A stretch of DNA of 39,544 nt from Nemertoderma westbladi (lineage: Eukaryota > Animalia > Xenacoelomorpha): assembly GCA_032718475.1 (NCBI GenBank), contig JAUCBJ010007292.1, positions 1-39,544 of the forward strand, written 5' to 3'. Below the pieces are notes generated by a model that saw only the letters and a program-made list of their open reading frames with translations, made no database searches and was not told where the DNA came from. This document shows, piece by piece, positions 9,001 through 37,709 of the stretch (positions are counted from its first letter, which is position 1; every line of letters starts with the position of its first letter). The position numbers and the translations under genes were made by a program.

Positions 9001-10437
9001 CTACATATTGGATGTGCTACGATACATATCGGATGTGCTACATATCGGATGTGCTACATATCGGATGTGCTACATCGCGGATGTGCTACATATCGGATGT
9101 GCTACGCTACATATCGGATGTGCTACATATCGGATGTGCTACGCTACATATCGGATGTGCTACATATTGCATGTGCTACATATTGGATGTGCTACGATAC
9201 ATATCGGATGTGCTACATATCGGATGTGCTACATATCGGATGTGCTACATATCGGATGTGCTACATATCGGATGTGCTACGCTACATATCGGATGTGCTA
9301 CATATCGGATGTGCTACGCTACATATCGGATGTGCTACATATTGCATGTGCTACATATTGGATGTGCTACGATACATATCGGATGTGCTACGCTACCTAT
9401 CGGATGTGCTACGCTACATATCGGATGTGCTACGCTACATATCGGATGTGCTACGCTACATATCGGATGTGCTACATATTGGATGTGCTACGATACATAT
9501 CGGATGTGCTACATATCGGATGTGCTACATATCGGATGTGCTACGCTACCTATCGGATGTGCTACATATCGGATGTGCTACATATCGGATGTGCTACATA
9601 TCGGATGTGCTACATATCGGATGTGCTACGCTACATATCGGATGTGCTACGCTACATATCGGATGTGCTACGCTACATATCGGATGTGCTACATATCGGA
9701 TGTGCTACATATCGGATGTGCTACGCTACATATCGGATGTGCTACATATCGGATGTGCTACATATCGGATGTGCTACATATCGGATGTGCTACGCTACAT
9801 ATCGGATGTGCTACGCTACATATCGGATGTGCTACATATCGGATGTGCTACATATCGGATGTGCTACGATACATATCGGATGTGCTACATATCGGATGTG
9901 CTACATATCGGATGTGCTACATATTGGATGTGCTACGATACATATCGGATGTGCTACCTATCGGATGTGCTACATATAGGATGTGCTACATATCGGATGT
10001 GCTACATATCGGATGTGCTACATATCGGATGTGCTACATATCGGATGTGCTACATATCGGATGTGCTACATCGCGGATGTGCTACATATCGGATGTGCTA
10101 CGCTACCTATCGGATGTGCTACGCTACATATCGGATGTGCTACGCTACATATCGGATGTGCTACGCTACATATCGGATGTGCTACATATCGGATGTGCTA
10201 CATATCGGATGTGCTACGCTACATATCGGATGTGCTACGCTACATATCGGATGTGCTACATATCGGATGTGCTACATATCGGATGTGCTACATATCGGAT
10301 GTGCTACATATCGGATGTGCTACATCGCGGATGTGCTACATATCGGATGTGCTACATCGGATGTGATACATATCGGATGTGCTACGCTTCATATCGGATG
10401 TGCTACATATCGGATGTGCTACATATCGGATGGTGCT
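1..10437. repeat. Satellite array, 16-bp monomer TACATATCGGATGTGC with 21-bp (+GCTAC or +GATAC), 20-bp and TTGG variants; runs off the left edge
   Basis: Uninterrupted head-to-tail repeats are directly visible, ending at ...CGGATGGTGCT immediately before the LTR terminal TG. Confidence 0.99.
10433..10437. other. Target-site duplication GTGCT, left copy (right copy 22267-22271)
   Basis: The same 5-mer flanks both outer LTR ends and is part of the satellite monomer; 5-bp TSDs are typical of BEL/Pao. Confidence 0.9.
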
Positions 10438-11662
10438 TGTTCGCGCTTTCAGACTTTTGGCAGTTTAACCCACCAAATTAAGATGTCTTCTAGATATTAA
10501 ATCAGTTTTTAGTCTATGACAAGTATTTGATTCACTACACTAGTCGAAACCAATCCGTGCGCGACCATTCACCCGCTGGAGATTCCCGGGAGATTGGGTT
10601 CGACGGTTTAATTTTATTGCTATGTAAGCCTAATGTATTATTCGACTGACAGTATTATATAATCTCTGACAATATTATTCACCTTCGGGAATATTAACAG
10701 TTCCTTTAGGACGTGGCGCTTTATCTATATAAACAGAGTTATGACTTAAACTACTCACAACGATATGGCTTAATTATAATTCACATATATGGCGCATTCT
10801 TTAGGAATTGCTTCTTTAACAGACTCACTCATACACAATGCTGCACAATACTGCACACTAATCTGCCAATCTTCACTGATTTTAGTCACATATAAAAGGA
10901 ACACAGGCTGACTCATGTAGGGTCTATCAAATAACATTAGATTCACTTCAAACCACTTTAACATAAGTCACAATCGTTATTGGTAACCTTTCTCTCTTAC
11001 CTTCGGTATATCAAGAATATTGGGTTGCGGGGTTATTTATCGTTATTCCAAATATAATAATTCATCAACCATATTATGAAGAACTGACAGCAAATAACAG
11101 TATAAAACAACAACTGAACACTGATTGTTACGAGTTTGCAATGTTTCAGCAGTCAGGATGTATGATCAGTTAGCAGTAGTCTTTAGGTATGCCGATATGT
11201 CAGGTCAGTTAAAGGATATATGTCCTTATAATTAAACCTACTAGTGTAAAACTAAAAACTGAAAACACGGAGGTGCCAAAAGCCGGTTCTTAGGCTCTGG
11301 GCAAAAACATAACACTGAACTACTGAGTTTCTGTATATACCTCCAACACAGAGACAACAAACGCTCTGATTGGTCAACCTGAACAACGAGAGAACAGAGA
11401 AACAAAGAAATGTCGACGTGGCAATATCAGCTGCTAGCCGTCGTCATGGTAGCGACACTGTTTTCAAGAGTATCGAGCTTTTACGTCACGGAATTACGGA
11501 TTATGTCCTCTAAAGTACAAATACAGAAGAAATAGCTTTTATGTCCGCTAAAACACCAGTACAGCAAGGACACGGCCTTTTTATGCCTGGTAAACCAACT
11601 ACAGAGTACTTTACGGGAAAAATAAGGAAAAATAACCGGACAATTCAGCAAAAGCTTTTACA
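10438..11662 (-). repeat. 3' LTR of element A
   Basis: TGTTCGCGC...AAAAGCTTTTACA; matches 21042-22266 at offset 10604 with two substitutions (11042/21646 and 11411/22015). Confidence 0.97.
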
Positions 11663-11670
11663 CCGCTCCC
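11663..11670 (-). promoter_or_regulatory. Polypurine tract (GGGAGCGG) abutting the 3' LTR
   Basis: Minus strand reads ...TTTTCTGGGAGCGG|TGTAAAAGC; short G-rich tract at the expected position. Confidence 0.7.
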
Positions 11671-11740
11671 AGAAAATGGGATTTTCAGTCTATAAAATAT
11701 AAAAATCACAGTTTCTAAAACATAAAGATACTCTGAACAG

Positions 11741-13050
11741 TTAGTCTTTCTTACGCAGACGGCGTTTACGCAGTTTTTTGAGGCTAGCAAGAGTCTTTTT
11801 CTCTTTGGGGGGAGCCACTTTACTAGGAGGGCCATAACTCCTGGGTGAAGGGTGCAATATGATTGCATCAGAAGGTGTAGGATTGTGGTCGAGGTATCTG
11901 CCGTTTCGATATGCTTCTCCTCGAGCTGATTTTCCTCCGCTCGTAGCTGGATACGTTCATCCAAAAACTCTCGCAGAGAATAGGATCGTCCAAGTTCGAT
12001 AACTTCTTAGAGATTCTGGATTTCCCAATCGAATTGAGATAAGGCCAATTCGTTCATCGATTGGACTTACTGTTATAACTTACGTTTATCTGAACAAACG
12101 CAGGTTTCCCTTTTGATCTTTATAGAATAGCGTTTAACTCGTTTCGTACAACGCTCTCCTTCACCTTGATGAGGGGTTGTATCGCGTTAAACGGGGACGA
12201 CCATACGGTTGGATAGTGATATTAGGTGTCCGCGTCACAATCCGGCTAGGTAAGATGGGCGGCTAGCTAGAAATCACTGTCGGAGTGTTACCGATTAATT
12301 GTTAGGGTAGCACTAGATCTTTGAACAGTGAATACAGTCCGCGAGGATCCGCGACACCACCAGGATCGCAGGTCTGAGGTCCAACTAAGGAATGAGGAGG
12401 TTTGACCGAGTATTCCGGGACTCTGATCGTAGGTTTACTCCAGGATCGTTCGAGCCGAGTGAGCATAGGTGATACGTCAACAAGTTTCGGTTTACGTGGA
12501 TGTTTATGTCTTTCCGTTTATTAGTTGGGTCTAGAGCGTTTATCGTAATAATACCAAAGACGCACGTTTGGTAGGGTAAACGCGGGTGATATTTGTTTGT
12601 TGTTACAATGCTTCTATCAAGAATTCCAAATATACGTTGGAGTTACCGCGTCCATTTGTTTCTTTAGTGTCTTTTCTTTCGAGTCGATTTCGAATAGAAT
12701 TTTCGCATTCGAATTTCAGTTTATGGTTCCGACTCCGCTGGGCAGGATATATAGTCGACATAGTCCGTATTGTGTAAATCGATAGGATGACCAGTAGTTA
12801 AGAAGCCCATATACGTACCATTACGCTGCGTATATCGAGCAGCGAATTTTCTATAGTCCAACTCACACGTGAGCTGCTCTTGGGACATTGGCGGTTCGAT
12901 ATAACGACCATCGTCCTCCGCAGCAGTTGGACTAACGTCGCCGCGTATTAAGCTATCAACAAATGCTTGTAAAAGTAGAGTATATCGCTCCCCGATACCA
13001 AGACCATCTTCTATCAACTCCGTCATATCTGCTATATGAGTTTATCCATA
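11741..13050 (-). pseudogene. Possible decayed accessory ORF(s) between pol remnant and 3' LTR
   Basis: More GC-rich than adjacent 13300-14680; minus-strand open stretches (12721-13026; MNELALSQFDWEIQNL*EVIELGRSYSLREFLDERIQL...; second frame ending ...LASLKKLRKRRLRKKD* at 11741) broken by stops and frameshifts. No recognisable family. Confidence 0.4.
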
Positions 13051-13860
13051 TTATAATGAGTCCACATTTAGGCGAGCGGGCGTCGCTGCCTACCCCAATC
13101 AACCCCCGGACAGTACGAGATCCTCAGCGCCGATGTGTCGTCGCCGCTGTACTTTCGCCAACGACGTAGCCGCACAACGACAACGACAACCGGCACAAGT
13201 CACTCGACTGTCCGTCCCAAAGGCTTAGATGTACTTCAGGTTTTCCTTGGAGAGTTAGGTTACTTTCACGATTGCGACTAGCTACTGTAAACACACCTTA
13301 GTAGTAACATTCGCCTATAAACTCACAAATACCACACACACAACTTGTCACAAATTACACACACTCGGGTCACTTGTCCGTTAGTCAATGCCTTCCAGAA
13401 TGTCACTGTATTATTATGTATCCTTGGATACTAGTAGTGCGCTATTTATTCCCTATGCTATTCAATGGGACAAGCTTTCTATTGTTCTTTTAACTCAATT
13501 CTAATTCTAGCGTGGTTGTTGCTATGGTGACATTATGCAAAGCTAGCGGTAGAATTAGGGTGATTCCAATGCATACAGATCTGGGATGTTATTTAATAGT
13601 ATTCTTTAATAGTCAATGTTCTGTTTTATACATGACTTTATGAATTTTATCGGCTATTGACTATGTTTGGGAGACTTTCGCACACTCATATGCATAATAA
13701 GATAAATCTCCGCTCCCTTGATCTATTAATTAATGGAATTTTGGGAACTTTATAAATTGCGTAAAAATGGCAATTTATTAAATTCATTAAAAGGCATGAA
13801 TTTAAATTTATTCCCTGAAATTTTATTATTTGATAATTAAATGGACATATTTTGATTCTA

Positions 13861-14140
13861 GAACATGTCTAGGGACACAAGATCCTTAATTCTATGACAA
13901 TTGTCTTTTTTAAGAATATCGGTAAATGCTACGATATCTTAATTGACTAGAATTGTTGGAGGATCTGAATTTTACAGATTTTGATTTATTAGATTTGCAA
14001 ATATTAAATAATTAATATTTGAGATGGGCACCGATTTATTCCAGAACTTGTCTGGGGACGTTAACCACTGATTCTAGAATTTGTCTTTCAAGTATATCGG
14101 TGGGTGCCGCGATATCTTAATCGACTAGAATTACAGATGG
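13861..14140. repeat. Diverged direct duplication (about 180-bp period) containing an ATATCG-N10-CGATAT hairpin in each copy
   Basis: GAACATGTCTAGGGAC...ATATCGGTAAATGCTACGATATCTTAATTGACTAGAATT versus GAACTTGTCTGGGGAC...ATATCGGTGGGTGCCGCGATATCTTAATCGACTAGAATT. Confidence 0.75.
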
Positions 14141-14682
14141 TCAAAGGGTTTAACAGATTTATTTTGCGTTATACGCTACTGTTAAAGGGACATCACGCTA
14201 CTATATGTATTATTTAATATACGGTATGAGAGCAATATCGCACGAAGCAATGTCAGTGTGAAGAGGCAAGTCGTTTCCAAGGTCTACCCAGAGCTTGGTT
14301 TAGCCGAGACACGAGGATCTGAACTTTGCATTCCTAATACTCTGCCTACCAATAATACTTAAATATAGTAGTGGCTTTATTGTACTTTAATAAGTACGGA
14401 CATTTCATCTTACTGTAGTCACGTATTTATAATATGATACGGAGAGTAAGGAAAGAGGAAAAGAATTATTTCTTGCCGTCGCATTAAATATAATATATAC
14501 GTAATTAAGTAATAAACGCGAATATATATTGCACTAATCTACTAAATAATCGCTAAAATAACATTCTACTGAATAAAATTAAAGAAAACGATTATAATAA
14601 AATTACATAGTAATACATACATAAATATAAAAATAATAAAATAATATAAAATAATAGAGTCACACACCCACTCCATATGTTG

Positions 14683-17600
14683 TTACGTTATGGAGTCCCT
14701 AGATGTTTGAAGGATTAGGGAGGTGGTCGTGGGAAGAGAATCTTGCCTTCCACAGTTTCCGGAGAGTCCTCCATTCCCTTCCGATAAACACAAACGACCG
14801 ACTGGGTGATTGAGTCGCTGCATCCTGAATACAATTCCAGGTTTCCTCTTCGTCCTGGAATAGTGACGATAGAAACATCGCTCAAAGTATATGACGGCGT
14901 CACAAAGCCGATTCCAGGAGCTATAGTGGTCCGTCGCTCTCTGCAGGAGAGGTGAGAGTCCCTGCGAGACATCTGATGTTCCAGAGCTCCAATCGCTCTC
15001 TCTGATCTTCATGAAGGATCCACTCGCGGTGGGGAGGTTCAGATCCACGGCGTCGTCCCTGGCAACATGTAATACCGACAGATCTATCCCGGGTTCAAAT
15101 AACTCCGATCCACCCGTCCGGGTTTCAGGTTCGACTTTCTCCGCTCCCTTGGCTGGTCTAATCTCAGTCGGAGTAAGATGGGGAGGCCATTCATTCTCCT
15201 TACTCAGGAAGTCGGGTTCACCTAACCGGTCTATAGTATCTGTCAGTTCTTGAGGAGTTGCTCCTCTGGAAGCGATGTCTGTTGGATTAAACTTCTTGGG
15301 GCAATATCTCCATTGATCTACATTGGAGCTAAGATTGTCATTATCTGAGGAGTGTGGTGTTCCCTCAGTTGGGTCGTCTCCCTCACTAGTATCATCTTCC
15401 CATTCACTCACCTGGCAGACACGATCTTGAAGCAGTCTTTCCCTGAGCGTTCTACGGGAAGGTCCAGTAAGGTACCAACCTACTCTAGTTCTTACCGCAT
15501 AGGTCTGTAGTGGCTGCGGTTGAGCAGGCCGTTTCTCTAATGTCTCCAGCGCCTCATGCGCGTTTTGGCCGATGAGTATTTGCACTCCAGGATAATCAGT
15601 CTGGAATCGAGGTATGTTAAGATGTTGGATGCTCTCATCCTCGTCCCAATTATAAAGGTCTGCTTGAGTAGTAGCGAAGTTCTTTATAGCCACCATTTTC
15701 ACTGACCTTATACTGTATTCTCCTAGTTTATCCTGTGGGGTGGACAACTCACCTATATAATAGTCGGCAGCTACAGTAGAATTCCAAACCTGCATGATCC
15801 CTGACATGTTTAGCTTGGTTCGGAACTTGGGTTGTCCAGCAAAGATGACTTCGGCTAGTTCCCTATCGATGAATGTTCCTGTGCTACCGGAGTCCAGGAG
15901 GGCGTTCACTATATAGCTCTTCTGAGGTCCGTGGACCCGTAACTGGACTACAGGAAATTCTCGGATTCCTATATTGGAAGTTGGCGCTTTCCAAGATGGT
16001 TGTTGATCGGAAGTAGTTAAGGTAAGGTCGCTGTCTGTGTCTTTCTCATACACGAGTGCTCGATACACTGCGGTGGTGTTTATTAGGTAACAGGATTCGT
16101 TTTGGTCGGAGAACTCGTCCGTATAGAATCCTTCCATCTCAGATTGATCAGTGTCGTTCACATCACTGAATTGGACATGTAGTTCGGACTCACTTACCTG
16201 ACTCGGGCTGTTTCGTTCGAATTCCGTGTGCAACAAGATATGATGTTTTGCGCCGCACTTTGCACACCTTGCGTCGGAGTTACAGGTTCGCCGTTGGTGT
16301 CCTCGTCTGAGGCAATTATAACACAACCGCTTATCCCACATGACTTCACGTCTATCCTCGAGTGATTTCCTCAGGAATTTATCACACGCATTTAAACGGT
16401 GGGGCCCGTCGCACAGCACACATTTCGGCTTGATGTTACTTACTTTAACCTGTGCTATGTGGTGCACACTTGTTCTTTCCTCGGGCTTTCTTACCTGAAT
16501 TCCTTTAGGAGACGTAGGAGGGGTTTTTTGTACCGGTTCCCTTCTGTCATTGGGTCGAGACTTGGATTTACTTACCTGTTCTTTAGGCATTTTATTGACA
16601 TAATAAGGCCTGTCAGTGTCTTTCCCGCTGTCCTCTCCTTGAGAGGTTTGGCTTTCACCGTCGTCGGTATAACATACTGGTGTTACCCTTCTCCTAGAAA
16701 CGGGTTTCTCACTTACCTTGTTTTCCAATGTCTTCTCTCTGGACTGCCTTAGGAGCTGTAATTTCACTTCTCTATCTAAGAATGACATGAGATCAGTCAT
16801 GGTAGGGTCTCGTCGTTGTTGTTCCATCATATATAACACCTTCTTATCCCAGCGTGTACCTACTCCACCCTTGGGCAAAGCAGATGCTAAGGCTCTTACA
16901 ACCATAGAATTCTGGTATTCATGAGACTTACCTAGCCAATCTAATTGTCTACAGATCTCCTGAATCTCATCGGAAAACTCGATAATTCCGCTACTAATAA
17001 ACTTTCGGGGCGCTACTAACTTGGCATACAAGTACCCAGCGATATTATTCCTATTTCCATACCTGATGTTTAGTGTATCCCAAACTTGTCTTAATCCGTC
17101 TGGATGTCCAATAAACTTTAACGCCATTAACTTGGGAGATCCTTCCAAGCACTCGATGAGGTATCTAAGTTTTTCTCCATTAGATAGTACAGAGTTCTGT
17201 ATGTTATCTTTGTAATATTCATTAAAAGGTAACCATTTCATCTCATCTCCATTGAACTTGACGATCTCTCCAACCTTTACCGCTTGCCGGGCTTCGGTTC
17301 TAGCCATTTGACGCGTAAAACTTTCTTGGGCCGTTGTGCTATTTAATATCGAGTTATCGGTATATAAATTCCTCGGATTATGATCAGTTCCATAGGGAAT
17401 ATCATTACAAACAGGTCTATAATTACCCTTAATAGGGTTCACTATAGGAGTTTCTACTTCGCTAGCAGTATAGATGCGTGTAGGCTCCACACCTTGCGCA
17501 TGAGATACTTCAGACCTAACGGGTTGACACATTGTTACAGAGGGTGGTGGTATACCCTTTTGGGTGTTTACTAATTTATCGCGTTCAAGCGCGATACTTT

Positions 17601-18879
17601 GCTGCACTTCTTGCAACTCTAGCCTACTTTCCCTCACTGTTCCCTTTAAATGTTGGACAGTCCCTTCCAACTCTCGGACCTGTTGGGAGGAGCGTATCTG
17701 ATTCTCCTTCATCTCTCCAAGGAGAATATCCATCCCCCGCCGTCTCTCGTCTACCCAATCAACCGCCGAAACGGGATCCGCCAACGTCGTAGCGGGCGGA
17801 CGAGGGACAACGGGCGACAAATTATGAATAATTCGCTCGGGGTCCAGGACCTGAACTGTATCCGGGACAGTTCTACGGGGCACAGGTAGCTTAGTGCTAT
17901 GCAAAGGGAATTTAGAAGTAGTTTCAGGGAGCACAGGTGTATCTATCACCGAAGGGGTGATTTCAAGAACAGGCCTAATTATTTCAGGCTCATCTACTAT
18001 AGTAGGGAGTCTTTCGATTTTAATTATTTGGTCTGTGGGCTCTGTACTACCTAAGTTGGTGTTATTTAGTTGCCTTCTAACAGCTGGAGGCAAATCAGGC
18101 AATTTCTGACGGTGGAATGTTCTTTTACGTCTGCTTAGACGAGATCTATTTCCTTTGCCTTCAGTATCGGTGGTATCGCCTTCCTCAGAAGATGTATATC
18201 CCTGTCTTTTGGGAGTAGATCGATTCATCATCTGCATATTACTAGCTGTTAACTGTTTATTTATGCAGTCTTGATTCTCCTGAATGGTTTCCAATTCTAA
18301 TTGGGTGGTTTCTTCGGAAGCTCTCCGTTCTGCTTCTGCTACTGCCTCGACCGCTGCTACAGCCGCCTTTCTTTCTGCTTCGGCCGCTGCTGCTGCCACT
18401 TTTCTTTCGGCTTCTGCCTCTGCCTCTGCCGCTGCCACTTTTCTTTTGGCTTCTGCCTCTGCTTCTGCCGCTGCCACTTTTCTTTTGGCTTCTGCCTCTG
18501 CCTCTGCCGCTGCCACTGCCGCTTTTCTTTCTGCTTCTGCCGCTGCGACTGCTGCTGCCACTGCCGCTGTATTTCTGTCTTCTATACGTTTTTTCTTGAT
18601 TTGTTCTTCTTGGTCTCTAGCGATGCGGAGTTGTTCATCGAATTTAGCTTGGTTCGCCGCTAACCTATCCACATCAATTGCATCCAACACACGCTGGGCT
18701 CCTTCACTATTAGGGCTAAGCCCATCTAGTCTTCTCCGCAACTCTTCATCACCTACGAAACGCTGATAGTCTGACAGATAGATGTCAATGGCATCCCTCT
18801 TATGCGGTTTCTCTGCTGTCACTTCGCTCTCGGTTGTATCTAGTAGACTGTCTGACAGGTTCTGCTTTGCGTCAGACAT
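14683..18879 (-). CDS. gag: Gag-protease polyprotein (1398 aa) fused to an RNase H C-terminal remnant; RT and integrase absent
   Basis: DUF1759-like capsid region (KFNGDEMKWLPF...EKLRYLIECLEG); knuckles CVLCDGPHRLNAC, CYNCLRRGHQRRTC, CAKCGAKHHILLH; protease ALLDSGST...ILIGQ...RTRVGW; then QWRYCPKKFNPTDIASRG and YSSWNRL. No YxDD or DDE motif seen. Confidence 0.92.
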   Translation of the reverse strand: MSDAKQNLSDSLLDTTESEVTAEKPHKRDAIDIYLSDYQRFVGDEELRRRLDGLSPNSEGAQRVLDAIDVDRLAANQAKFDEQLRIARDQEEQIKKKRIEDRNTAAVAAAVAAAEAERKAAVAAAEAEAEAKRKVAAAEAEAEAKRKVAAAEAEAEAERKVAAAAAEAERKAAVAAVEAVAEAERRASEETTQLELETIQENQDCINKQLTASNMQMMNRSTPKRQGYTSSEEGDTTDTEGKGNRSRLSRRKRTFHRQKLPDLPPAVRRQLNNTNLGSTEPTDQIIKIERLPTIVDEPEIIRPVLEITPSVIDTPVLPETTSKFPLHSTKLPVPRRTVPDTVQVLDPERIIHNLSPVVPRPPATTLADPVSAVDWVDERRRGMDILLGEMKENQIRSSQQVRELEGTVQHLKGTVRESRLELQEVQQSIALERDKLVNTQKGIPPPSVTMCQPVRSEVSHAQGVEPTRIYTASEVETPIVNPIKGNYRPVCNDIPYGTDHNPRNLYTDNSILNSTTAQESFTRQMARTEARQAVKVGEIVKFNGDEMKWLPFNEYYKDNIQNSVLSNGEKLRYLIECLEGSPKLMALKFIGHPDGLRQVWDTLNIRYGNRNNIAGYLYAKLVAPRKFISSGIIEFSDEIQEICRQLDWLGKSHEYQNSMVVRALASALPKGGVGTRWDKKVLYMMEQQRRDPTMTDLMSFLDREVKLQLLRQSREKTLENKVSEKPVSRRRVTPVCYTDDGESQTSQGEDSGKDTDRPYYVNKMPKEQVSKSKSRPNDRREPVQKTPPTSPKGIQVRKPEERTSVHHIAQVKVSNIKPKCVLCDGPHRLNACDKFLRKSLEDRREVMWDKRLCYNCLRRGHQRRTCNSDARCAKCGAKHHILLHTEFERNSPSQVSESELHVQFSDVNDTDQSEMEGFYTDEFSDQNESCYLINTTAVYRALVYEKDTDSDLTLTTSDQQPSWKAPTSNIGIREFPVVQLRVHGPQKSYIVNALLDSGSTGTFIDRELAEVIFAGQPKFRTKLNMSGIMQVWNSTVAADYYIGELSTPQDKLGEYSIRSVKMVAIKNFATTQADLYNWDEDESIQHLNIPRFQTDYPGVQILIGQNAHEALETLEKRPAQPQPLQTYAVRTRVGWYLTGPSRRTLRERLLQDRVCQVSEWEDDTSEGDDPTEGTPHSSDNDNLSSNVDQWRYCPKKFNPTDIASRGATPQELTDTIDRLGEPDFLSKENEWPPHLTPTEIRPAKGAEKVEPETRTGGSELFEPGIDLSVLHVARDDAVDLNLPTASGSFMKIRESDWSSGTSDVSQGLSPLLQRATDHYSSWNRLCDAVIYFERCFYRHYSRTKRKPGIVFRMQRLNHPVGRLCLSEGNGGLSGNCGRQDSLPTTTSLILQTSRDSIT
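18340..18570 (-). repeat. In-frame 39-bp tandem repeats encoding Ala/Glu/Lys/Arg helical repeats (VAAAEAEAEAKRK) in the Gag N-terminus
   Basis: Visible in DNA (GCTTCTGCCTCTGCCTCTGCCGCTGCCACTTTTCTTTTG-like units) and in the translation. Confidence 0.9.
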
Positions 18880-20214
18880 GCTTATGTGTACAGTTGAATG
18901 TCTACTGCTGTATTACAGTCTGAGCAAGTCTAGTAACTCAGTATTAACTGCTAGCCTAGTAATTAATTACCGGTACTGCTACTCAGTGTAGCGTGATATA
19001 TATAATATATTAGAATACCGGTATGCTTATAGTATATATAACTATTATTACAGACTAGGTTTATCACAGAATACCGGTATAATTTTAGCACAAATATATA
19101 TAAAAATATAATAGGCCTATCGGAATACCGGTATACAGCTTACAGTTTGTAGTATATATAATTCTGAAATAGAATTAATTACACGTACCGGTATAATTTC
19201 AGCCTAGATTATAGAAATAAAGATAATAGGCCTATCGTAAATACCGGTATATCAATTATTTTAAAATAACTGAATTTCTGAACTTTAGGGTTACTTGGTT
19301 ACTTTAACTTACTTTATTACCGTTATTTAAGCAGTAATCCAACTGATATTGAGACCTAATGGTTGTATGGTAGGCCTACTATTTATAAATCGTTAGATTT
19401 GATTTATAATATATATATACCCGTTTTAATGGGTTTTGTCAATGTTGAAATAAATGTTATTATTTCTGGGGAGTAATCACTACACAAAGCGGTACGCTTT
19501 CAGTGAAGTGTTACTTATAGGACACTAAAACAAATAATTCTAATTTACCTAAGTTACTTAATACTACAAATTACGTACAATTCGGGTGAGATTACAATCT
19601 CTAAATAAACACAAAAATTTACAAAAAACACAAAATACGAATTTTTAGGGTAATTGTACAAGAAGTCTACAAACCAGCCTAACAAAGGGTTAGAAAACTG
19701 ATTATTACAGCGGACAGGGTACTACGGTATTTGAAATAATAAGTAGTAGTAAATACACTGCGTTGTCTAGATAGGAAAATACCACCGCCTGACGACCTAT
19801 AGCCGTATCGCTATAGGTTCTACGTTATGTATCACGGAGTGTTCCTACCTAGAAGTTAATAGAGCTAATCGAATGTGCCTATCAACCACTTTACAACACA
19901 GATATAATGTCTACAATAATTACTTCGGAAAGTACTGTACACTAAACCCTAAATTAGGTACGAGTACTTGTATAACAAATAATCAGTAGTTAAATATACT
20001 TGAACAGCTAAAAGAACCACGGCATCTGCTGGAGTGACCGATGCACAAAATCACCAGTCTTTACCTACGCCAAGCAGCCCGTGTAGTACCGAGGTTAATT
20101 TAACTATAGCGGTATGTATAACAAACACAATTACTGTAGGAACAAACTTGGGGACTTGAATGTTGCGAATAATCGCATAAACTCTGAATAATAAATATTA
20201 CGCTACGCGTACAA

Positions 20215-20790
20215 ACTACTCAAACAAAATACAGACAGAACACTGACAGACTACTATCAAGCCTAAACAAACTACGGTATATGCAGACTCCGAAATGATT
20301 AGGGAGTATGCGCTCTAACCCAGTAGTGCGACTTATTCTTTAGTTGGGGGATTACCTTACAGCGTTCGCTGCCCCTACTGCCTAATCGTACTTAATCGGA
20401 CAGATGATCTACACACGCGGCAATCCGTTCAGACCTAATAACAGCCAGACAACTATCCAGCCTACAAATTATCTAAATAAAATTATACGCTACCCGTACA
20501 GACTTACACAAACAAAGTACAGACTAAACAATGGCAGACCACTCTCAAGCCTAAATAAACCACAGGACATGCAGACTCCGAAATGATTAGGGAGTATGCG
20601 CTCTAACCCAGTAGTGCGACTTATTCTTTAGTTGGGGGATTACCTTACAGCGTTCGCTGCCCCTACTGCCTAATCGTACTTAATCGGACAGATGATCTAC
20701 ACACACTGCAATTCGTTCGGACTTAACAGCAATCAGACAAAAGCTCGGCCTACAAATCGTCTGTACAATCTGATCAGGCTTACACGCCTT
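20215..20790. repeat. Tandem duplication (288-bp period) in the 5' leader of element A
   Basis: 20281-20416 is identical to 20569-20704; the flanking parts of the units are diverged. Confidence 0.92.
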
Positions 20791-21029
20791 CTGTTCAATA
20801 CTGGCCTACAAATAAATAAAACTTGACAGAAATAAGTAAACCATATAAAGGTATAAGGGGTGATCAATCCCTAATCCCCTAAACAGCCTACCGGTATATA
20901 ATTATCAAAATCGAATAATACTGCTGTACCTGTACTGCTGTAGGTACCGGTCCGGGTGGTTAGGTAGTCAGGCCTACTGGGTACCGGTTGCCGGTACTTC
21001 AGCTTTATTGCCTACTGCAATACAGAAGC

Positions 21030-21041
21030 TATATCCTTTAA
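21030..21041 (-). promoter_or_regulatory. Non-tRNA primer-binding site of element A (TTAAAGGATATA)
   Basis: Immediately follows the 5' LTR terminal CA; no TGG; perfect 12-nt complement of LTR segment 21813-21824. Confidence 0.8.
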
Positions 21042-21812
21042 TGTTCGCGCTTTCAGACTTTTGGCAGTTTAACCCACCAAATTAAGATGTCTTCTAGATA
21101 TTAAATCAGTTTTTAGTCTATGACAAGTATTTGATTCACTACACTAGTCGAAACCAATCCGTGCGCGACCATTCACCCGCTGGAGATTCCCGGGAGATTG
21201 GGTTCGACGGTTTAATTTTATTGCTATGTAAGCCTAATGTATTATTCGACTGACAGTATTATATAATCTCTGACAATATTATTCACCTTCGGGAATATTA
21301 ACAGTTCCTTTAGGACGTGGCGCTTTATCTATATAAACAGAGTTATGACTTAAACTACTCACAACGATATGGCTTAATTATAATTCACATATATGGCGCA
21401 TTCTTTAGGAATTGCTTCTTTAACAGACTCACTCATACACAATGCTGCACAATACTGCACACTAATCTGCCAATCTTCACTGATTTTAGTCACATATAAA
21501 AGGAACACAGGCTGACTCATGTAGGGTCTATCAAATAACATTAGATTCACTTCAAACCACTTTAACATAAGTCACAATCGTTATTGGTAACCTTTCTCTC
21601 TTACCTTCGGTATATCAAGAATATTGGGTTGCGGGGTTATTTATCATTATTCCAAATATAATAATTCATCAACCATATTATGAAGAACTGACAGCAAATA
21701 ACAGTATAAAACAACAACTGAACACTGATTGTTACGAGTTTGCAATGTTTCAGCAGTCAGGATGTATGATCAGTTAGCAGTAGTCTTTAGGTATGCCGAT
21801 ATGTCAGGTCAG

Positions 21813-21824
21813 TTAAAGGATATA
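21813..21824 (-). promoter_or_regulatory. Putative self-primer segment in LTR A (minus strand TATATCCTTTAA; also at 11209-11220)
   Basis: Exact reverse complement of the PBS-position sequence. Confidence 0.75.
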
Positions 21825-21860
21825 TGTCCTTATAATTAAACCTACTAGTGTAAAACTAAA

Positions 21861-22057
21861 AACTGAAAACACGGAGGTGCCAAAAGCCGGTTCTTAGGCT
21901 CTGGGCAAAAACATAACACTGAACTACTGAGTTTCTGTATATACCTCCAACACAGAGACAACAAACGCTCTGATTGGTCAACCTGAACAACGAGAGAACA
22001 GAGAAACAAAGAAACGTCGACGTGGCAATATCAGCTGCTAGCCGTCGTCATGGTAGC
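21861..22057 (-). promoter_or_regulatory. Candidate U3 promoter elements: Inr-like TTCAGTT (21861-21867), CCAAT box (21970-21977), X-box-like GTCGTCATGGTAGC (22044-22057)
   Basis: Similar motifs occur in the same order in the diverged LTR B (TTCAGAC about 26246-26252, CTGATTGG 26383-26390, GTTTCCATGCCAGC 26428-26441). Function is inferred. Confidence 0.4.
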
Positions 22058-22266
22058 GACACTGTTTTCAAGAGTATCGAGCTTTTACGTCACGGAATTA
22101 CGGATTATGTCCTCTAAAGTACAAATACAGAAGAAATAGCTTTTATGTCCGCTAAAACACCAGTACAGCAAGGACACGGCCTTTTTATGCCTGGTAAACC
22201 AACTACAGAGTACTTTACGGGAAAAATAAGGAAAAATAACCGGACAATTCAGCAAAAGCTTTTACA

Positions 22267-24991
22267 GTGCTACATATCGGATGTGCTACATATCGGATGT
22301 GCTACATATCGGATGTGCTACATATCGGATGTGCTACATATCGGATGTGCTACGCTACATATCGGATGTGCTACATATAGGATGTGCTACATATCGGATG
22401 TGCTACATATCGGATGTGCTACATATCGGATGTGCTACATATCGGATGTGCTACGCTACATATCGGATGTGCTACATATCGGTTGTGCTACATATTGGAT
22501 GTGCTACGATACATATCGGATGTGCTACATATCGGATGTGCTACATATCGGATGTGCTACATATCGGATGTGCTACGCTACATATCGGATGTGCTACATA
22601 TAGGATGTGCTACATATCGGATGTGCTACATATCGGATGTGCTACATATTGGATGTGCTACGATACATATCGGATGTGCTACATATCGGATGTGCTACAT
22701 ATCGGATGTGCTACATATCGGATGTGCTACATATCGGATGTGCTACATATCGGATGTGCTACATATAGGATGTGCTACATATCGGATGTGCTACATATCG
22801 GATGTGCTACATATCGGATGTGCCACGCTACATATCGGATGTGCTACATATCGGATGTGCTACATATCGGATGTGCTACATATCGGATGTGCTACATATT
22901 GGATGTTCTACGATACATATCGGATGTGCTACATATCGGATGTGCTACATATTGGATGTGCTACATATCGGATGTGCTACATATCGGATGTGCTACATAT
23001 TGGATGTGCTACGAAACATATCGGATGTGCTACGCTACATATCGGATGTGCTACGATACATATCGGATGTGCTACGCTACATATCGGATGTGCTACATAT
23101 CGGATGTGCTACGCTACATATCGGATGTGCTACATATCGGTTGTGCTACGCTACATATCGGATGTGCTACGCTACATATCGGATGTGCTACGCTACATAT
23201 CGGATGTGCTACGCTACATATCGGATGTGCTACATATAGGATGTGCTACATATCGGATGTGCTACTTATCGGATGTGCTACATATCGGATGTGCTACATC
23301 GCGGATGTGCTACATATCGGATGTGCTACATATCGGATGTGCTACATATCGGATGTGCTACATATTGGATGTGCTACGATACATATCGGATGTGCTACAT
23401 ATCGGATGTGCTACATATTGGATGTGCTACATATCGGATGTGCTACGCTACATATCGGATGTGCTACATATCGGATGTGCTACATATCGGATGTGCTACG
23501 CTACATATCGGATGTGCTACATATCGGATGTGCTACATATCGGATGTGCTACATATCGGATGTGCTACATATCGGATGTGCTACATATCGGATGTGCTAC
23601 ATATTGGATGTGCTACGATACATATCGGATGTGCTACATATCGGATGTGCTACATATTGGATGTGCTACATATCGGATGTGCTACATATCGGATGTGCTA
23701 CATATTGGATGTGCTACGCTACATATCGGATGTGCTACGCTACATATCGGATGTGCTACGCTACATATCGGATGTGCTACATATCGGATGTGCTACATAT
23801 CGGATGTGCTACATATCGGATGTGCTACATATCGGATGTGCTACATATCGGATGTTCTACATATTGGATGTGCTACGATACATATCGGATGTGCTACATA
23901 TCGGATGTGCTACATATTGGATGTGCTACATATCGGATGTGCTACATATCGGATGTGCTACATATTGGATGTGCTACGCTACATATCAGATGTGCTACGC
24001 TACATATCGGATGTGCTACGCTACATATCGGATGTGCTACGCTACATATCGGATGTGCTACGCTACATATCGGATGTGCTACGCTACATATCGGATGTGC
24101 TACATATCGGTTGTGCTACGCTACATATCGGATGTGCTACGCTACATATCGGATGTGCTACATATCGGATGTGCTACGCTACATATCGGATGTGCTACAT
24201 ATCGGATGTGCTACATATCGGATGTGCTACGCTACATATCGGATGTGCTACATATCGGATGTGCTACATATTGGATGTGCTACATATCGGATGTGCTACA
24301 TATCGGATGTGCTACATATTGGATGTGCTACGCTACATATCAGATGTGCTACGCTACATATCGGATGTGCTACGCTACATATCGGATGTGCTACGCTACA
24401 TATCGGATGTGCTACGCTACATATCGGATGTGCTACGCTACATATCGGATGTGCTACATATCGGTTGTGCTACGCTACATATCGGATGTGCTACGCTACA
24501 TATCGGATGTGCTACATATCGGATGTGCTACGCTACATATCGGATGTGCTACATATCGGATGTGCTACATATCGGATGTGCTACGCTACATATCGGATGT
24601 GCTACATATCGGATGTGCTACATATCGGATGTGCTACATATCGGATGTGCTACATATCGGATGTGCTACATATCGGATGTGCTACGCTACATATCGGATG
24701 TGCTACATATCGGATGTGCTACATATCGGATGTGCTACATATCGGATGTGCTACATATCGGATGTGCTACATATTGGATGTGCTACGATACATATCGGAT
24801 GTGCTACATATCGAATGTGCTACGATACATATTGGATGTGCTACATATCGGATGTGCTACATATCGGATGTGCTACATATCGGATGTGCTACGCTACATA
24901 TCGGATGTGCCACGCTACATATCGGATGTGCTACGCTACATATCGGATGTGCTACGCTACATATCGGATGCGCTATGCTACATATCTGATG
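22267..24991. repeat. Continuation of the 16/21-bp satellite array
   Basis: Same monomer and orientation, resuming at the TSD; degenerates at the right end (...GCGCTATGCTACATATCTGATG). Confidence 0.99.
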
Positions 24992-25382: not shown

Positions 25383-25433
25383 TTTACCGGTCGACCGGTA
25401 CTTTCAACTTTATTGCTCACTGCAATAAAGACA

Positions 25434-25444
25434 ATAACTGTTAT
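25434..25444 (-). promoter_or_regulatory. Non-tRNA PBS of element B (ATAACAGTTAT), complementary to LTR segment 26197-26207
   Basis: Abuts the LTR end; 11-nt perfect complement lies at the position homologous to 21813-21824. Confidence 0.75.
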
Positions 25445-26634
25445 TGTACGCGCTTTTGAAGACCTTTAGCAGTTTAACCTGCTAAAATTTATATGTCTTT
25501 TGGTTTATAAATAGACTTTTAGTAAATGACGAGTATTTAATACCAATAAACACAACATTAGCCGAAGCCAGCCTAGTGCGCGTCCATTCACCCGCTGGAT
25601 ATACCCGGGAGACTGGATTCGGAGGGCTTAGATTGTTATTGCAGTGTAAGCTTACTGTATTATTCGATTGATCGTTAATAAATAATTCCTGACTAATATT
25701 ATTCACTTTCGGGAAATATTAACAGTTCCTTTAGGACGTGGCGCTCTATCTAGGTAAACAGAGCTATGACTTATACTAAACACAACGGTAAGTCGGTAAG
25801 GCTTATGATTCACGTATGAGGCGCATTCTTTAGGAAATGCTTAGTTATCAGCCACAATCATGCACACTACCGGTACCACACAATACTGCACAATAATCTG
25901 CCGACCGTCAATGAATTTTATCATATATAAAGAGAACAGCAATTGACTCATGTAGTGTCTATCGAATAGCATTAAACTCACTACAAACCACGATGATATA
26001 AGTCGCAATCGCTATATGTAACCTGTCTCTCTAACCTGTAGTGTATCAAGAAAATTGGGAAATTTGGGTTCTTTATAGATGTTCTCCAAATAATAATATT
26101 CAACCAACTGATACAAATAATAACAGTAAATAGCATTAAGACGGTAGGTTAAGATATGATATGATTGTTTGGTTAGTTGATAATTATGGCGAATTGATAA
26201 CAGTTATACGTTCTATAATCTAAGCCTACTAATGTTTCTTCTAAAGTCTGAAACGAATTGACTCTAGAGCCGGTGTTCTTGGCCTAGATAGAAACAACAC
26301 AACAGTATCAAGAAAAAACAGTAAGACTGAACACTCCTAGCACGATCTGTAGAAAATCTCCACATCGACAGTAAAAATCACCCTGATTGGCTGTTAAGCT
26401 AAACAAAGAACCATGTGTCCAATGGCCGTTTCCATGCCAGCAACCAGCTGTTAGATGTCGTAATCTGAATCATCAAGGCTACGCTGTGCTAGAGTATTTG
26501 ACGCATTGCGGGTTTTATGCCTTACCATGTCCGCCAAAGCACACATATAGAAGAATGACTTTTATGTCCGTTAAAACACCTATAACGGTACTTTGCGGGC
26601 GAGGGGACTGATTATATCCGCAAAAGCTTTTACA
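25445..26634 (-). repeat. 5' LTR of element B (1190 bp, TGTACGCGC...AAAAGCTTTTACA)
   Basis: Homologous end to end with LTR A, with conserved termini and a more diverged U3-side half. Confidence 0.92.
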
Positions 26635-28480
26635 TATAGAGTATTTAACCAGAGCTTTAAGAGTTACAGGTGATCTAATATACATAAAATCGTCAAGTTG
26701 CGCAACACCATAGGCGGACATTGCAGCTCTTAACAAAGTCGATTGATCTAATCTAAGAACACAATCTAGTAGAAAATGCGATTCGGATTCAGGCTCACCA
26801 CATAAACAGGCACAATCATCAATGTCACCATATCTGCTTATCATAAGAGCCAGGTTGCCCTGACCGAGCACCAAACCGAGAATGAAGGATTCACGAGCTC
26901 TACCACAGGCTAGATTTATGGGTGTAAGTGACGGCAGCTGGTTTGTTTTGATCAGAGAATCGTTCAAATTGAGAGACTTTTTCCATACATCCTGTGTATA
27001 CATTTTCATTTGTCCTTGAGTGTAGTGCAATTGCCGTGAGTCTATATTCTCGATTTCAATTAAACGACTAGATCTCTCATTGTTTAACCACGCAATATAG
27101 GTTTTCACATCGTTCAAGTGTGAGGCAAAACTGTTTTTTAAGGACAGTTCGGAAATCGCTTTCAACGACATTGTAATGTCTTCCGATCTCGACAATGATT
27201 TCAACAGATATTTGGTCCTGATTACCTGACAAAATATTTCGGGAGGCGGAATGCCACATATCACTTCTAGTTTATTTCTGTGAGGGTTATATAAAGCACC
27301 AACAGATTGTTTTAGCATTATGCCCCATAGATCATTAAGAATTTTTATGGCTTCCCGATTCATCCATACTGGTGATGCATACAATAGTCTTGGTAGTAGT
27401 ACCGACTGTATTAGCTTTGTTGCTGCTTGTAGGTTTATTCCGCTGGATGGCTTCACAAATTTACTTATGAGATCCCAAATACTCCAGAATTTTTGCAATA
27501 GTGACCTGATATGAAATTCAAAGGACATATTAGAGTCAAAAATGACTCCAAGAATTTTGGTCTCATGAATATAGCTACATACACTATTCCCCATGACTAT
27601 TTTAGGTAAGGCATCATAGTCAATGTGAGGCATGTTTATTATCACAATGTCTGTCTTTTCTCCATTAGTTTTTAGTCGCCATTTTGTACACCATGTACTA
27701 AATTGGCTACAGTCTGTTTGAACTTGACTTAGGCAGACTAACAGGGCCTCCATTGATTGATCACATCCTCTATAATTAGAGCTATCATCTGCGTATTTGT
27801 ATTGTGACAACAACTCTACAATGTAGAAACAGAAAAAGTCCATTGAAAGGACACGTCCTTGAGCTAACCCGATTTCAACATCTAGACAAAACGTTTCTGA
27901 TTTGTAGTCATTAACAACTATTTCTATATTACGGTGTTTTAATATGGTTGTGATGCATTTCAGAATTTTCCCCCTAATACCGGCATTATATAATTTATAG
28001 AGGAGTCCGTTTATCCATATAGAATCAAAAGCCTTCTCTACATCTATAGTAGTTAAAACACCTGATCTACCATTTGATGTATCTTCTTTTATCATACTTG
28101 TTAATTTATATAGGTAGTCTACTGTGCTCGAGTTAGGTTTGCAGAATTGTGATTTGTCGCAGTGTGGTCCAACTAAATCTTGAATTCTATGTTTGATCAA
28201 CCGTTCAAAAAGTTTACCAAAATATGACGATATAGAGATAGGTCGGTATGAACCTGGGAATTTGTAATCTCTTTTACCTGCTTTTTTGATAAACTTATTC
28301 ATATTCAATGGCCATGGCCATATATTACTCTCAAATGTTAGATTAAACAAATGTAAAGTGAGTGACCGCGCCCAAAAGCCCATAGATGTTATAAACTTTG
28401 GATGTATTCCATCACAATCCATTGACTTACCACTACATTTAATTTGTTTTATTTCATTGTGAGGGGTACCATTAATCAAC
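26635..28480 (-). mobile_element. 5'-truncated non-LTR retrotransposon (I/Jockey-group-like) ORF2: RT plus C-terminal CCHC finger, interrupted by LTR B
   Basis: YRPISISSYFGKLFERLI, DVEKAFDSIW, GLAQGRVLS, YADD, KILGVIFDSNMSF, CLCGEPESESHFLLDC. The last 40 or so residues of the tracked 654-aa ORF are read-through into LTR B. Confidence 0.92.
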
Positions 28481-28645
28481 CTGTCGTTCTGTCGTTCTGT
28501 CGCGTTTTTTTTCAGTATTTTATTTTAAACGTTAATAACTCGGCCAATCCTTGATGAAATCTATCCAAACTTGGTACACATGTTGTTTGGCAAAAGTTTG
28601 AAAATTTTCCAAGTAGAATTTGCGTGGGGCCTTCGTGCAGCATCA
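28481..28645 (+). mobile_element. Possible non-autonomous Helentron/DINE-like fragment
   Basis: CTGTCGTT short repeats followed by ATAACTC...TGAAA...AAACTTGGTACACATG, resembling the core of such elements; recognised from memory only. Confidence 0.3.
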
Positions 28646-30958: not shown

Positions 30959-31610
30959 GCTACATCGGATGTGCTACATCGGATGCGCTACATCGGATGT
31001 GCTACATCGGATGTGCTACATCGGATGTGCTACATCGGATGTGCTACATCGGATGTGCTACATCGGATGTGCTACATCGGATGTGCTACATCGGATGTGC
31101 TACATACCGGATGTGCTACATCGGATGTGCTACATATCGGATGTGCTACATCGGATGTGCTACATCGGATGTGCTACATCGGATGTGCTACATCGGATGT
31201 GCTACATCGGATGTGCTACATCGGATGTGCTACATATCGGATGTGCTACATCGGATGTGCTACATCGGATGTGCTACATCGGATGTGCTACATCGGATGT
31301 GCTACATCGGATGTGCTACATCGGATGTGCTACATCGGATGTGCTACATATCGGATGTGCTACATCGGATGTGCTACATCGGATGTGCTACATCGGATGT
31401 GCTACATCGGATGTGCTACATCGGATGTGCTACATCGGATGTGCTACATCGGATGTGCTACATCGGATGTGCTACATCGGATGTGCTACATCGGATGTGC
31501 TACATCGGATGTGCTACATATCGGATGTGCTACATATCGGATGTGCTACATCGGATGTGCTACATCGGATGTGCTACATCGGAGGTGCTACATATCGGAT
31601 GTGCTACATA
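30959..31610. repeat. Short satellite array, 14-bp monomer GCTACATCGGATGT with occasional 16-bp units
   Basis: Directly visible; differs from the main monomer by lacking one AT dinucleotide. Confidence 0.98.
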
Positions 31611-36583: not shown

Positions 36584-37709
36584 GATGTGTAGTACAATTC
36601 GGTCCCGGACAATTCCGGACAATTCGGTCCCAAAACACTAAATAAATGGGACCGAATTGTCCGGGACCGAATGGTTCGTTGTTCGGGACCGCATTGTCCT
36701 AGGACCGCATTGTCCTAGGACCGCATTGTCCTAGGACCTCATTGTCCTAGGACCGCATTGTCCTAGGACCTCATTGTCCTAGGACCGAATTGTCCGGTAA
36801 TTGATTAGTGTTTTTTTTACTAGCTAGAATATCTTTAAACTTTCTAATTACTGTATTTTTTTTTATTTTTGTTAATAGTAAGTGTTCGATTCGAGAACAT
36901 TATTAAATATTATTTATTAAGGTGTAGCTAGTGTCTTTTTTACTAGCTAGCGTTTTCTTGAAATTATTATAAAAGAATTTGTAAAATCATTGATATTTCA
37001 GAATTAGGCCTAATTAGCTAAACTGTTGCTGATTATATTAAATACCAACAATATTGATGATATTATAACAGTCCCTGAATGAGATCCAGCTATTATCTAG
37101 GATAATAATTTAGGCTTCTTAACCAACCAACAACACATACAGTATACTTACGCAATATATAAAAAAAATCAGTTTTAAACATTTTAAATAGATACAACTA
37201 GCTAGTAAATAATTCACAAGCTCCATAAAAACACCATAGGTACCATAACTAATGTTAACAAAAAAAAGTAAATTTTTTTATTTTCAATAAAATACTAGCT
37301 AGGAAAAAAACACTAGCTACCATATAATTATATATATTAAGGTTCTAGAACATTCACCATTATATAGTACCAATTAAATTTGGTCCCGGGCAATTCGGTC
37401 CCGGACAAATCGGTCCCGGCCAATTCGGTCCCGGACAAGTCGGTCCCGGACAATTCGGTCCCATTAATATGCATGTTTTGGGACCGAATTGACCTAGTCA
37501 GTATCCAGACAATTCGGCCCCGGACAATTCGGTCCCAGACAATTCGGTCCCATTAATATGCATGTTTTGGGACCGAATTGACCTAGTCAGTATCCAGACA
37601 ATTCGGCCCCGGACAATTCGGTCCCAGACAATTCGGTCCCAAAACACAAAATAAATGGGATTGAATTGTTCGGGACCAAATTTTCCGGGACCGAATTGTC
37701 CTGCTTCCC
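36584..37709. mobile_element. Non-autonomous Mutator-like/foldback element with repeat-rich long inverted termini
   Basis: Arrays of ACAATTCGGTCCC/GGACCGAATTGTCC at both ends; termini GATGTGTAGTACAATTC and (reverse complement) GGGAAGCAGGACAATTC align; near-identical 9-bp flanks TCCAAAATA / TTCAAAATA. Confidence 0.75.

What the first reader, a model, noticed from the sequence alone, without database searches (positions are those of the whole stretch)
21030..21824. Apparent tRNA-independent self-priming in a BEL/Pao retrotransposon
Seen: on the element's sense (minus) strand the 5' LTR ends ...GCGCGAACA and is followed with no gap by TTAAAGGATATA, with no TGG to pair with a tRNA CCA end. The LTR itself carries the exact 12-nt complement TATATCCTTTAA (21813-21824), about 440 nt from its 5' end. 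The geometry fits priming: the 3' end of the LTR segment pairs with the base next to the terminal CA, so cleavage 3' of the duplex would give a primer that copies U5. Established: S. pombe Tf1 and related Tf1/sushi Ty3/Gypsy elements prime this way using an 11-nt duplex and RNase H-dependent cleavage, whereas BEL/Pao elements are generally described as tRNA-primed. Inference: an independent origin of self-priming in Belpaoviridae. I am not aware of a prior description but cannot search the literature.
Basis: partly seen in the sequence, partly recalled or inferred. Interest (0 to 1): 0.92.

Follow-up and report, generated by a model that had tools for sequence, protein, structure and literature searches.

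The report
Self-priming signature in BEL/Pao retrotransposon
A recently inserted jumping gene of the BEL/Pao type has no tRNA landing site; the 11 letters where DNA copying should start are instead exactly complementary to a stretch of its own terminal repeat, and a diverged sister copy and many distant relatives keep such a match with different letters, so these elements likely start copying with a piece of their own RNA.

Summary
Observation confirmed. A young BEL/Pao-derived element (minus strand 22266-10438; 1225-nt LTRs with 2 differences; 5-nt target duplication) has no TGG after its 5' LTR. The next 12 nt are the exact complement of LTR 21813-21824 (0 of 3000 shuffles).

New here: (1) A diverged sister LTR in the window (26634-25445) keeps an 11-nt match at the homologous place through four compensatory changes. 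(2) In 31 of 39 public BEL/Pao loci tested (of 82 fetched) the primer site has an 11-15-nt self-complement, modal length 11 as in Tf1; most lie across a predicted splice junction in the LTR. The blind subset gave 23 of 29 against 1.1 expected. (3) The element lacks RT, most of RNase H and integrase, so enzymes must come in trans.

Best reading: Tf1-like self-priming (about 0.72 in cis; about 0.85 tRNA-independent in some form). Not shown: transcript start, cleavage, primer on cDNA; host tRNAs untestable. A weak TATA just upstream of the segment is a real rival. ICTV describes the family as tRNA-primed; 10 literature searches found no BEL/Pao self-priming. This scan noted it before in other genomes.

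The parts
21042..22266 (-). 5' LTR of element 1, 1225 nt, TG...CA
   Evidence: direct repeat with 10438-11662, 2 differences
10438..11662 (-). 3' LTR of element 1
22267..22271 (-). target-site duplication AGCAC (other copy 10433-10437), inside a 16-nt satellite array
21030..21041 (-). primer-binding position, offset 0 from the LTR end, no TGG; conserved core 21031-21041
21813..21824 (-). putative self-primer segment in the 5' LTR (core 21813-21823); 771 nt from the LTR end
11209..11220 (-). copy of the segment in the 3' LTR
21045..21168 (-). predicted 6-bp helix beside the primer site: 21045-21050 with 21163-21168; one compensatory change in element 2
   Evidence: pair probability 0.37-0.96 in six windows
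21060..21081 (-). predicted U5 hairpin, kept in element 2 with changed pairs
   Evidence: z -0.68 in element 1, -2.39 in element 2
21918..21977 (-). CCAAT box (21977-21973) and TCAGT (21922-21918), both present in element 2: candidate promoter about 100 nt upstream of the segment
   Evidence: function inferred
21829..21834 (-). weak TATA-like TATAAG 11 nt upstream of the segment: would put a start downstream of it (rival)
14683..18879 (-). open Gag-protease frame (DUF1759, three zinc knuckles, aspartic protease) running into the tail of the RNase H region; no RT, no integrase
11663..11670 (-). short purine-rich tract abutting the 3' LTR (likely PPT)
25445..26634 (-). LTR of element 2, a diverged sister (about 77% in the 3' half), followed by a truncated leader to about 24990
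   Evidence: end fixed by homology only
25434..25444 (-). element 2 primer-binding position, offset 0, no TGG
26197..26207 (-). element 2 complementary segment, 17 nt after the shared TAGTAGG as in element 1

Best explanation
This non-autonomous BEL/Pao-derived retrotransposon has an 11-nt site after its 5' LTR that is exactly complementary to a segment inside that LTR, and it likely uses that segment of its own transcript, not a tRNA, as the primer for reverse transcription. Shown: the element's anatomy, the absence of a tRNA-type site, the complement, its covariation and its spread in relatives. Inferred steps, by analogy with Tf1: the transcript starts at or upstream of the segment (candidates 21825, two bases before it, or about 21920); the segment pairs with the primer site, helped by a helix at the end of U5; RNase H supplied in trans by an autonomous relative cuts just 3' of the duplex; RT extends the new 3' end into the terminal CA, U5 and R; the strong-stop DNA jumps to the 3' R, which must reach past the cut (a candidate AATAAA lies at LTR position 1045). 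Plus-strand synthesis would copy the primer into the new primer site, which would explain perfect complementarity and a sharp length of 11.
For: 12-nt match at offset 0, 0 of 3000 shuffles. Element 2: 11-nt match at the homologous place, 4 of 11 positions changed on both sides, rough chance 4e-5; each site matches only its own LTR (12 and 11 nt against 5 and 8 crosswise). Relatives with the LTR end fixed by a direct repeat: 8 of 10 have 11-15 nt, 1 has 10, 1 none, 0 of 10 have TGG; 0 of 192 control 25-mers reach the observed length in each of the 9. Blind scan: 23 of 29 against 1.1 expected. Among 28 representatives plus the two window elements the duplex is 11 nt in 20, 12 in 5, 13 in 4, 15 in 1, with 28 different 11-mers; Tf1 uses 11 (PMC7175516). 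In most relatives the complement exists only across a GT..AG junction, so the partner must be RNA. The window elements share the relatives' flanking letters C(-3), A(+10), C(+12) (20, 26, 17 of 28). Predicted pairing 0.95 for element 1 if the RNA starts at the segment. U5-end helix with one compensatory change.
Against: No RNA data: no run on record as RNA held the sequence and all laid runs were contigs. A weak TATA-like word 10-11 nt upstream of the segment in both elements could start transcription downstream of it. In element 2 the site is nearly palindromic and forms a local hairpin; long-range pairing probability only 0.21-0.29, absent from all four MFE folds, and 2 of 120 control 25-mers reach 11. 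For element 1 the pair was absent from the MFE of one fold starting at 21922. The loop is 750-770 nt against 44-234 nt in relatives. The second Tf1-type flanking helix depends on the folding window (0-0.94 in element 1). 7 of 39 tested loci show no match and 43 of 82 were not tested. The element's tree position is unsure (end branch 2.14). Host tRNAs could not be searched.
Confidence: 0.72

Rival explanations
1. Still tRNA-independent, but the primer comes in trans or from elsewhere: a short LTR-derived RNA (other copy, solo LTR, second genome in the particle) or the 3' LTR copy supplies the 11 nt, and the 5' copy need not be on the transcript.
For: Weak TATA just upstream of the segment; 750-770-nt loop; low cis pairing in element 2; the family is abundant in the laid runs; the segment is also in the 3' LTR.
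Against: A cut in the 3' copy with a start downstream of the segment would lose LTR sequence (reasoning); conserved CCAAT and TCAGT lie upstream of the segment; each site matches its own LTR, not the sister's.
Confidence: 0.13
2. The duplex is structural (packaging, translation or polyadenylation switch) and priming uses some other, unknown host RNA.
For: The LTR-leader region folds better than shuffles (z -4.6) and has other conserved helices; covariation alone does not show priming.
Against: The duplex starts 0-4 nt after the LTR end in all 30 cases, is fully Watson-Crick and peaks at 11 nt (the scan looked for perfect matches only, but 31 of 39 passed it); no other primer site is visible; 28 different 11-mers cannot all match one host RNA.
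Confidence: 0.1
3. A tRNA fragment (half-tRNA or organellar tRNA) primes, and the LTR match is chance or a relic.
For: Half-tRNA priming is known in some Copia lineages (PMC6317226); host tRNAs were not available, so not excluded directly.
Against: Shuffle and control counts; a tRNA switch gives no reason for the LTR segment to change in step at four positions; junction-only matches in relatives.
Confidence: 0.03

Closest known systems
Tf1/Tf2/Tj1 and the Tf1/sushi group (Ty3/gypsy chromoviruses)
   Same: No tRNA site; 11-nt complement between an LTR segment and the site after the terminal CA; a helix next to the site (PMC7175516; PMC4600332; bioRxiv 10.1101/2022.12.06.519325).
   Different: Different superfamily (BEL/Pao Gag and protease); segment not shown to be the RNA 5' end; 770-nt loop; second flanking helix uncertain; no own RT or RNase H; in most relatives the segment is split by a predicted intron.
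TAR (Houba, Osr-1) Ty1/copia and Tcn1 elements of plants
   Same: Self-priming predicted from sequence by a criterion (10 nt or more, starting 0-5 nt after the LTR) that both window elements meet (PMC6317226).
   Different: Other superfamilies and hosts.
Belpaoviridae / BEL-Pao as profiled by ICTV
   Same: TG..CA LTRs, Gag with DUF1759 and three zinc knuckles, protease, RNase H tail, PPT.
   Different: ICTV gives an 18-nt site for tRNA-Arg or tRNA-Gly (PMC8742986); absent here. RT and integrase absent; 11.8 kb against 4.2-10 kb.
Sailor lineage (Sinbad, Sparrow, Surcouf) and Suzu clades of BEL/Pao
   Same: The relatives that carry the signature form a large non-insect group; these names are my recalled best guess for it, from PMC6238403.
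   Different: No named reference was in the tree, so the clade name is untested; that paper has no mention of PBS, tRNA or priming.

Membership tests
BEL/Pao (Belpaoviridae) | LTRs with TG..CA ends and a target-site duplication | tested here: met
BEL/Pao (Belpaoviridae) | BEL/Pao-type Gag (DUF1759, three zinc knuckles) and protease | tested here: met
   Pfam DUF1759 E 7.5e-12; matches to full BEL/Pao polyproteins; profile E 3e-66
BEL/Pao (Belpaoviridae) | Pol with RT, RNase H, integrase | tested here: not met
   only the RNase H-region tail; no RT or integrase by tblastn, blastx or profile in six frames. Filed as a non-autonomous derivative, not a full member
BEL/Pao (Belpaoviridae) | 18-nt site complementary to the 3' end of tRNA-Arg or tRNA-Gly | tested here: not met
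   no TGG within 8 nt of the LTR end in either element or in 10 of 10 relatives with a fixed end
BEL/Pao (Belpaoviridae) | polypurine tract of about 10 nt before the 3' LTR | tested here: met
   8-nt tract, 7 purines, 11663-11670
Tf1/sushi group | Ty3/gypsy chromovirus ancestry | tested here: not met
   protein is BEL/Pao-type; not a member
Tf1-type self-priming (works like) | about 11-nt complement between an LTR segment and the site just after the 5' LTR | tested here: met
Tf1-type self-priming (works like) | [quoted passage not shown] | not testable with these tools
   no raw RNA reads
Tf1-type self-priming (works like) | three-duplex 'pretzel' fold | tested here: inconclusive
   U5-end helix in both elements with one compensatory change (0.30-0.96); leader helix 0-0.94 and 0.25-0.99 by window
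Tf1-type self-priming (works like) | RNase H cut 3' of the duplex and extension by RT | not testable with these tools
   needs bench work; enzymes not encoded by this copy

The most novel reading that the evidence does not exclude
Self-priming is the normal priming mode of a large non-insect branch of BEL/Pao. In most members host splicing of an LTR intron builds the 11-nt primer; intron-less forms like this one arose repeatedly, and here the system is exploited by an abundant family that keeps Gag and protease but borrows RT, RNase H and integrase.
Probability: 0.55. Interest if true: 0.87.

Novelty: new variant of a known kind. Interest (0 to 1): 0.74.

Why it matters
The ICTV profile describes Belpaoviridae as tRNA-primed. 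A covarying 11-nt self-complement across a wide BEL/Pao branch would change that description, make self-priming a feature of all three LTR superfamilies, and bear on whether self- or tRNA-priming came first. The same length as in Tf1 points to a shared enzymatic constraint. The splice-junction form in relatives would tie reverse transcription to host splicing. Practically, LTR finders that score a tRNA site would miss or mis-end these elements. Each prediction has base-level coordinates and can be tested with 5'-end and cDNA sequencing.

Tried and rejected
No whole genome is held for the window, so no survey of intact copies or host tRNAs. No RNA holder listed. Laid contigs were short and could not link a primer site to its LTR segment; the 40 best-supported variants shown included none in either 12-mer, but 104 rows were not shown, so this is no evidence. 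Viral contig scans found no relatives. No tRNA genes in the window; Rfam gave one sub-threshold hit (E 0.7). MAFFT misaligned the 5' halves of the two LTRs; homology of the segments rests on the shared TAGTAGG anchor and spacing. No TATA-like word was enriched at -36 to -22 from the duplex in relatives (3 of 28), so the start site could not be inferred. Helix searches with a 7-bp minimum gave nothing above shuffles for the U5 end (82 and 83 of 100) or the element 1 leader (48 of 100; element 2: 5 of 100). The strong leader helix came partly from my window end cutting off a competing hairpin; one search corrects it. I saw no convincing conserved intron in the window's LTRs by motif inspection. 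The RT frame at 26515-28524 is not the element's RT (no BEL/Pao hit there). The tree left out 6 loci with short pieces and could not place element 1 firmly. Look-ups of earlier findings by sequence, by place and by further words were empty. No structure or complex prediction was run.

Full report
1. The observation. The window holds an LTR element on the minus strand, 22266 to 10438, inserted in a 16-nt satellite. Its LTRs (21042-22266, 10438-11662) are 1225 nt with 2 differences and are flanked by AGCAC on both sides, so it is young and its ends are certain. The 12 nt after the 5' LTR (21041-21030) are the exact complement of LTR 21824-21813. 0 of 3000 dinucleotide shuffles of the LTR gave this at offset 0, 2 of 3000 at offsets 0-3; 3 of 9368 internal 12-mers have a complement in the LTR. 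There is no TGG in the first 8 nt.

2. What the element is. One long frame (14683-18912) carries DUF1759 (E 7.5e-12), three zinc knuckles and an aspartic protease, then passes straight to the tail of the RNase H region of BEL/Pao polyproteins. No RT or integrase was found by tblastn with 4 polyproteins, blastx of the flanking internal DNA against 169 proteins or a profile in six frames. Contigs in two of the four laid runs, some about 16% diverged, span the protease-to-tail junction (records 18, 19, 29), so the RT-less layout is shared by other copies. Best database relatives are only about 30% identical. It is a non-autonomous BEL/Pao derivative.

3. A natural control in the window. A second, diverged LTR (26634-25445; 76.8% over 723 nt in its 3' half and leader) ends GCGCGTACA and is followed at offset 0 by ATAACAGTTAT. 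Its exact complement lies at 26207-26197 (6 of 3000 shuffles), 17 nt after the same TAGTAGG as in element 1. The two sites differ at 4 of 11 positions and the two segments differ at the matching 4 positions with the complementary letters (rough chance 4e-5). Crosswise matches are 5 and 8 nt. The 12th pair of element 1 is not kept, so the core is 11 nt. Caveats: this LTR's end is fixed by homology only; its site is nearly palindromic and forms a local hairpin; predicted long-range pairing is 0.21-0.29 against 0.95 for element 1; 2 of 120 control 25-mers reached 11.

4. Relatives. With an alignment of 15 full-length BEL/Pao proteins I fetched 82 loci (73, 9). Earlier notes of this scan had suggested primers formed at splice junctions, so I searched for both contiguous and junction matches. 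Group A, 10 loci whose LTR end is fixed by a direct repeat: 8 have 11-15 nt across a GT..AG junction, 1 has 10 nt contiguous, 1 has none (L058, an older copy; one search shows a weak donor at the matching place); 0 of 10 have TGG; in each of the 9, 0 of 192 control 25-mers reach the observed length. Group B, 29 loci with the LTR in the contig but no fixed end: a blind scan of every ACA gave 11 nt or more in 23 (17 junction, 5 contiguous, 1 ambiguous) against 1.1 expected. I set the group B ranges by hand after a first scan and relaxed the acceptor and offset rules after reading misses; the null used the same relaxed rules. Several loci are near-copies (L053/L059, L060/L068, L062/L065). 43 of 82 loci were not tested because I had no LTR boundary for them. 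Among 28 representatives chosen from the passing loci, plus the two window elements, duplex length is 11 in 20, 12 in 5, 13 in 4, 15 in 1; offsets are 0-4; 28 of 30 11-mers differ. The window elements share the relatives' commonest letters at -3, +10 and +12 (20, 26, 17 of 28), which fits homology of the segment but is weak. A FastTree tree of 97 rows spreads the signature over a large group apart from the four arthropod-named proteins, with contiguous forms nested among junction forms (L023 beside L035; L006 near L002 and L003); element 1 is a long branch (2.14) of unsure position outside the core of that group. The junctions are predicted from motifs; no RNA was seen. The query selected non-insect elements, so there was no tRNA-primed positive control.

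5. Fold. With the primer site held free, both elements form a 6-bp helix between the end of U5 and LTR sequence about 115 nt upstream, with one compensatory change; probability 0.30-0.96 over 12 windows. A second helix between the leader and the LTR, as in the Tf1 'pretzel', is possible in both but depends on the window (0-0.94, 0.25-0.99). So the pretzel is inconclusive.

6. Mechanism. See Best explanation. Shown: anatomy, complement, covariation, spread. Inferred from Tf1 (first 11 bases pair with the site; RNase H cuts between bases 11 and 12; PMC7175516): start at or above the segment, cut, extension, strand transfer. The start is unknown. For: CCAAT and TCAGT about 100-120 nt upstream in both LTRs, and a C-purine step two bases upstream. 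Against: a weak TATA 10-11 nt upstream of the segment in both. The enzymes must come from an autonomous partner that I could not see.

7. Literature. Whole text read: ICTV profile PMC8742986, which gives an 18-nt site for tRNA-Arg or tRNA-Gly. Passages read: PMC6317226 (self-primers in Tf1/sushi, Tcn1, TAR), PMC4600332, PMC7175516, bioRxiv 10.1101/2022.12.06.519325, PMC3601003, PMC6934838, PMC8220671, PMC5443660, PMC6238403. Term look-ups found no PBS, tRNA or priming passage in the BEL/Pao papers PMC554778, PMC3118150, PMC6238403 or in PMC2774666. Ten searches (listings only, apart from the papers named) showed no report of self-priming in BEL/Pao. The library lacks most subscription journals, Repbase reports and GyDB pages, and I read no supplements, so a prior mention is not excluded. 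The primary Tf1 papers were not read. Seven earlier notes of this scan report the same signature in other genomes; they are unchecked and not counted as evidence.

8. Verdict. Real, strongly covarying and clade-wide; a known mechanism in a family where it is not on record; priming itself not demonstrated. New variant of a known kind, interest 0.74.

Noticed in passing
window 14683-18912 (-): Abundant RT-less family with an open Gag-protease frame. Of the 40 variants listed, those in the protease part fall 13 of 22 at third codon positions, those in the tail 4 of 18: a hint of selection on the protease only; 217 rows were not shown.
   Followed up: partly
window 26515-28524 (-): A separate RT frame (Pfam RVT_1, E 1e-17), not BEL/Pao-like, probably non-LTR type (untested), runs into the start of the element 2 LTR, which seems inserted in it.
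   Followed up: partly
window 20-10437, 22267-24892, 30959-31609: Long 16-nt satellite arrays host both LTR elements; a related 14-nt array lies at 30959-31609. Possibly centromeric or subtelomeric heterochromatin (guess).
   Followed up: no
window 21003-21022 and 25406-25430 (-): A hairpin just after the primer site, kept in both elements, contains AATAAA in its 3' arm; it competes with a leader-LTR helix and might control premature polyadenylation.
   Followed up: partly
window 21170-21203 (-) and 25585-25621 (-): Conserved hairpin with the palindrome CCCGGG in both LTRs; a possible dimerisation signal (guess).
   Followed up: no
window 18913-21029 and 11663-14682 (-): A 2.1-kb leader with a 288-nt duplication (20183-20740) and 3 kb of DNA without protein hits before the 3' LTR.
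   Followed up: partly
L074-L082: Nine contigs filed in prokaryote genome assemblies carry BEL/Pao elements: likely animal host DNA contaminating those assemblies.
   Followed up: no
P0001: A BEL/Pao polyprotein with an N-terminal SAP domain by precomputed Pfam (PF02037).
   Followed up: no
window 36594-37701: Clusters of 15-16-nt repeats in direct and inverted arrangement, resembling the ends of a small non-autonomous DNA element (guess).
   Followed up: no
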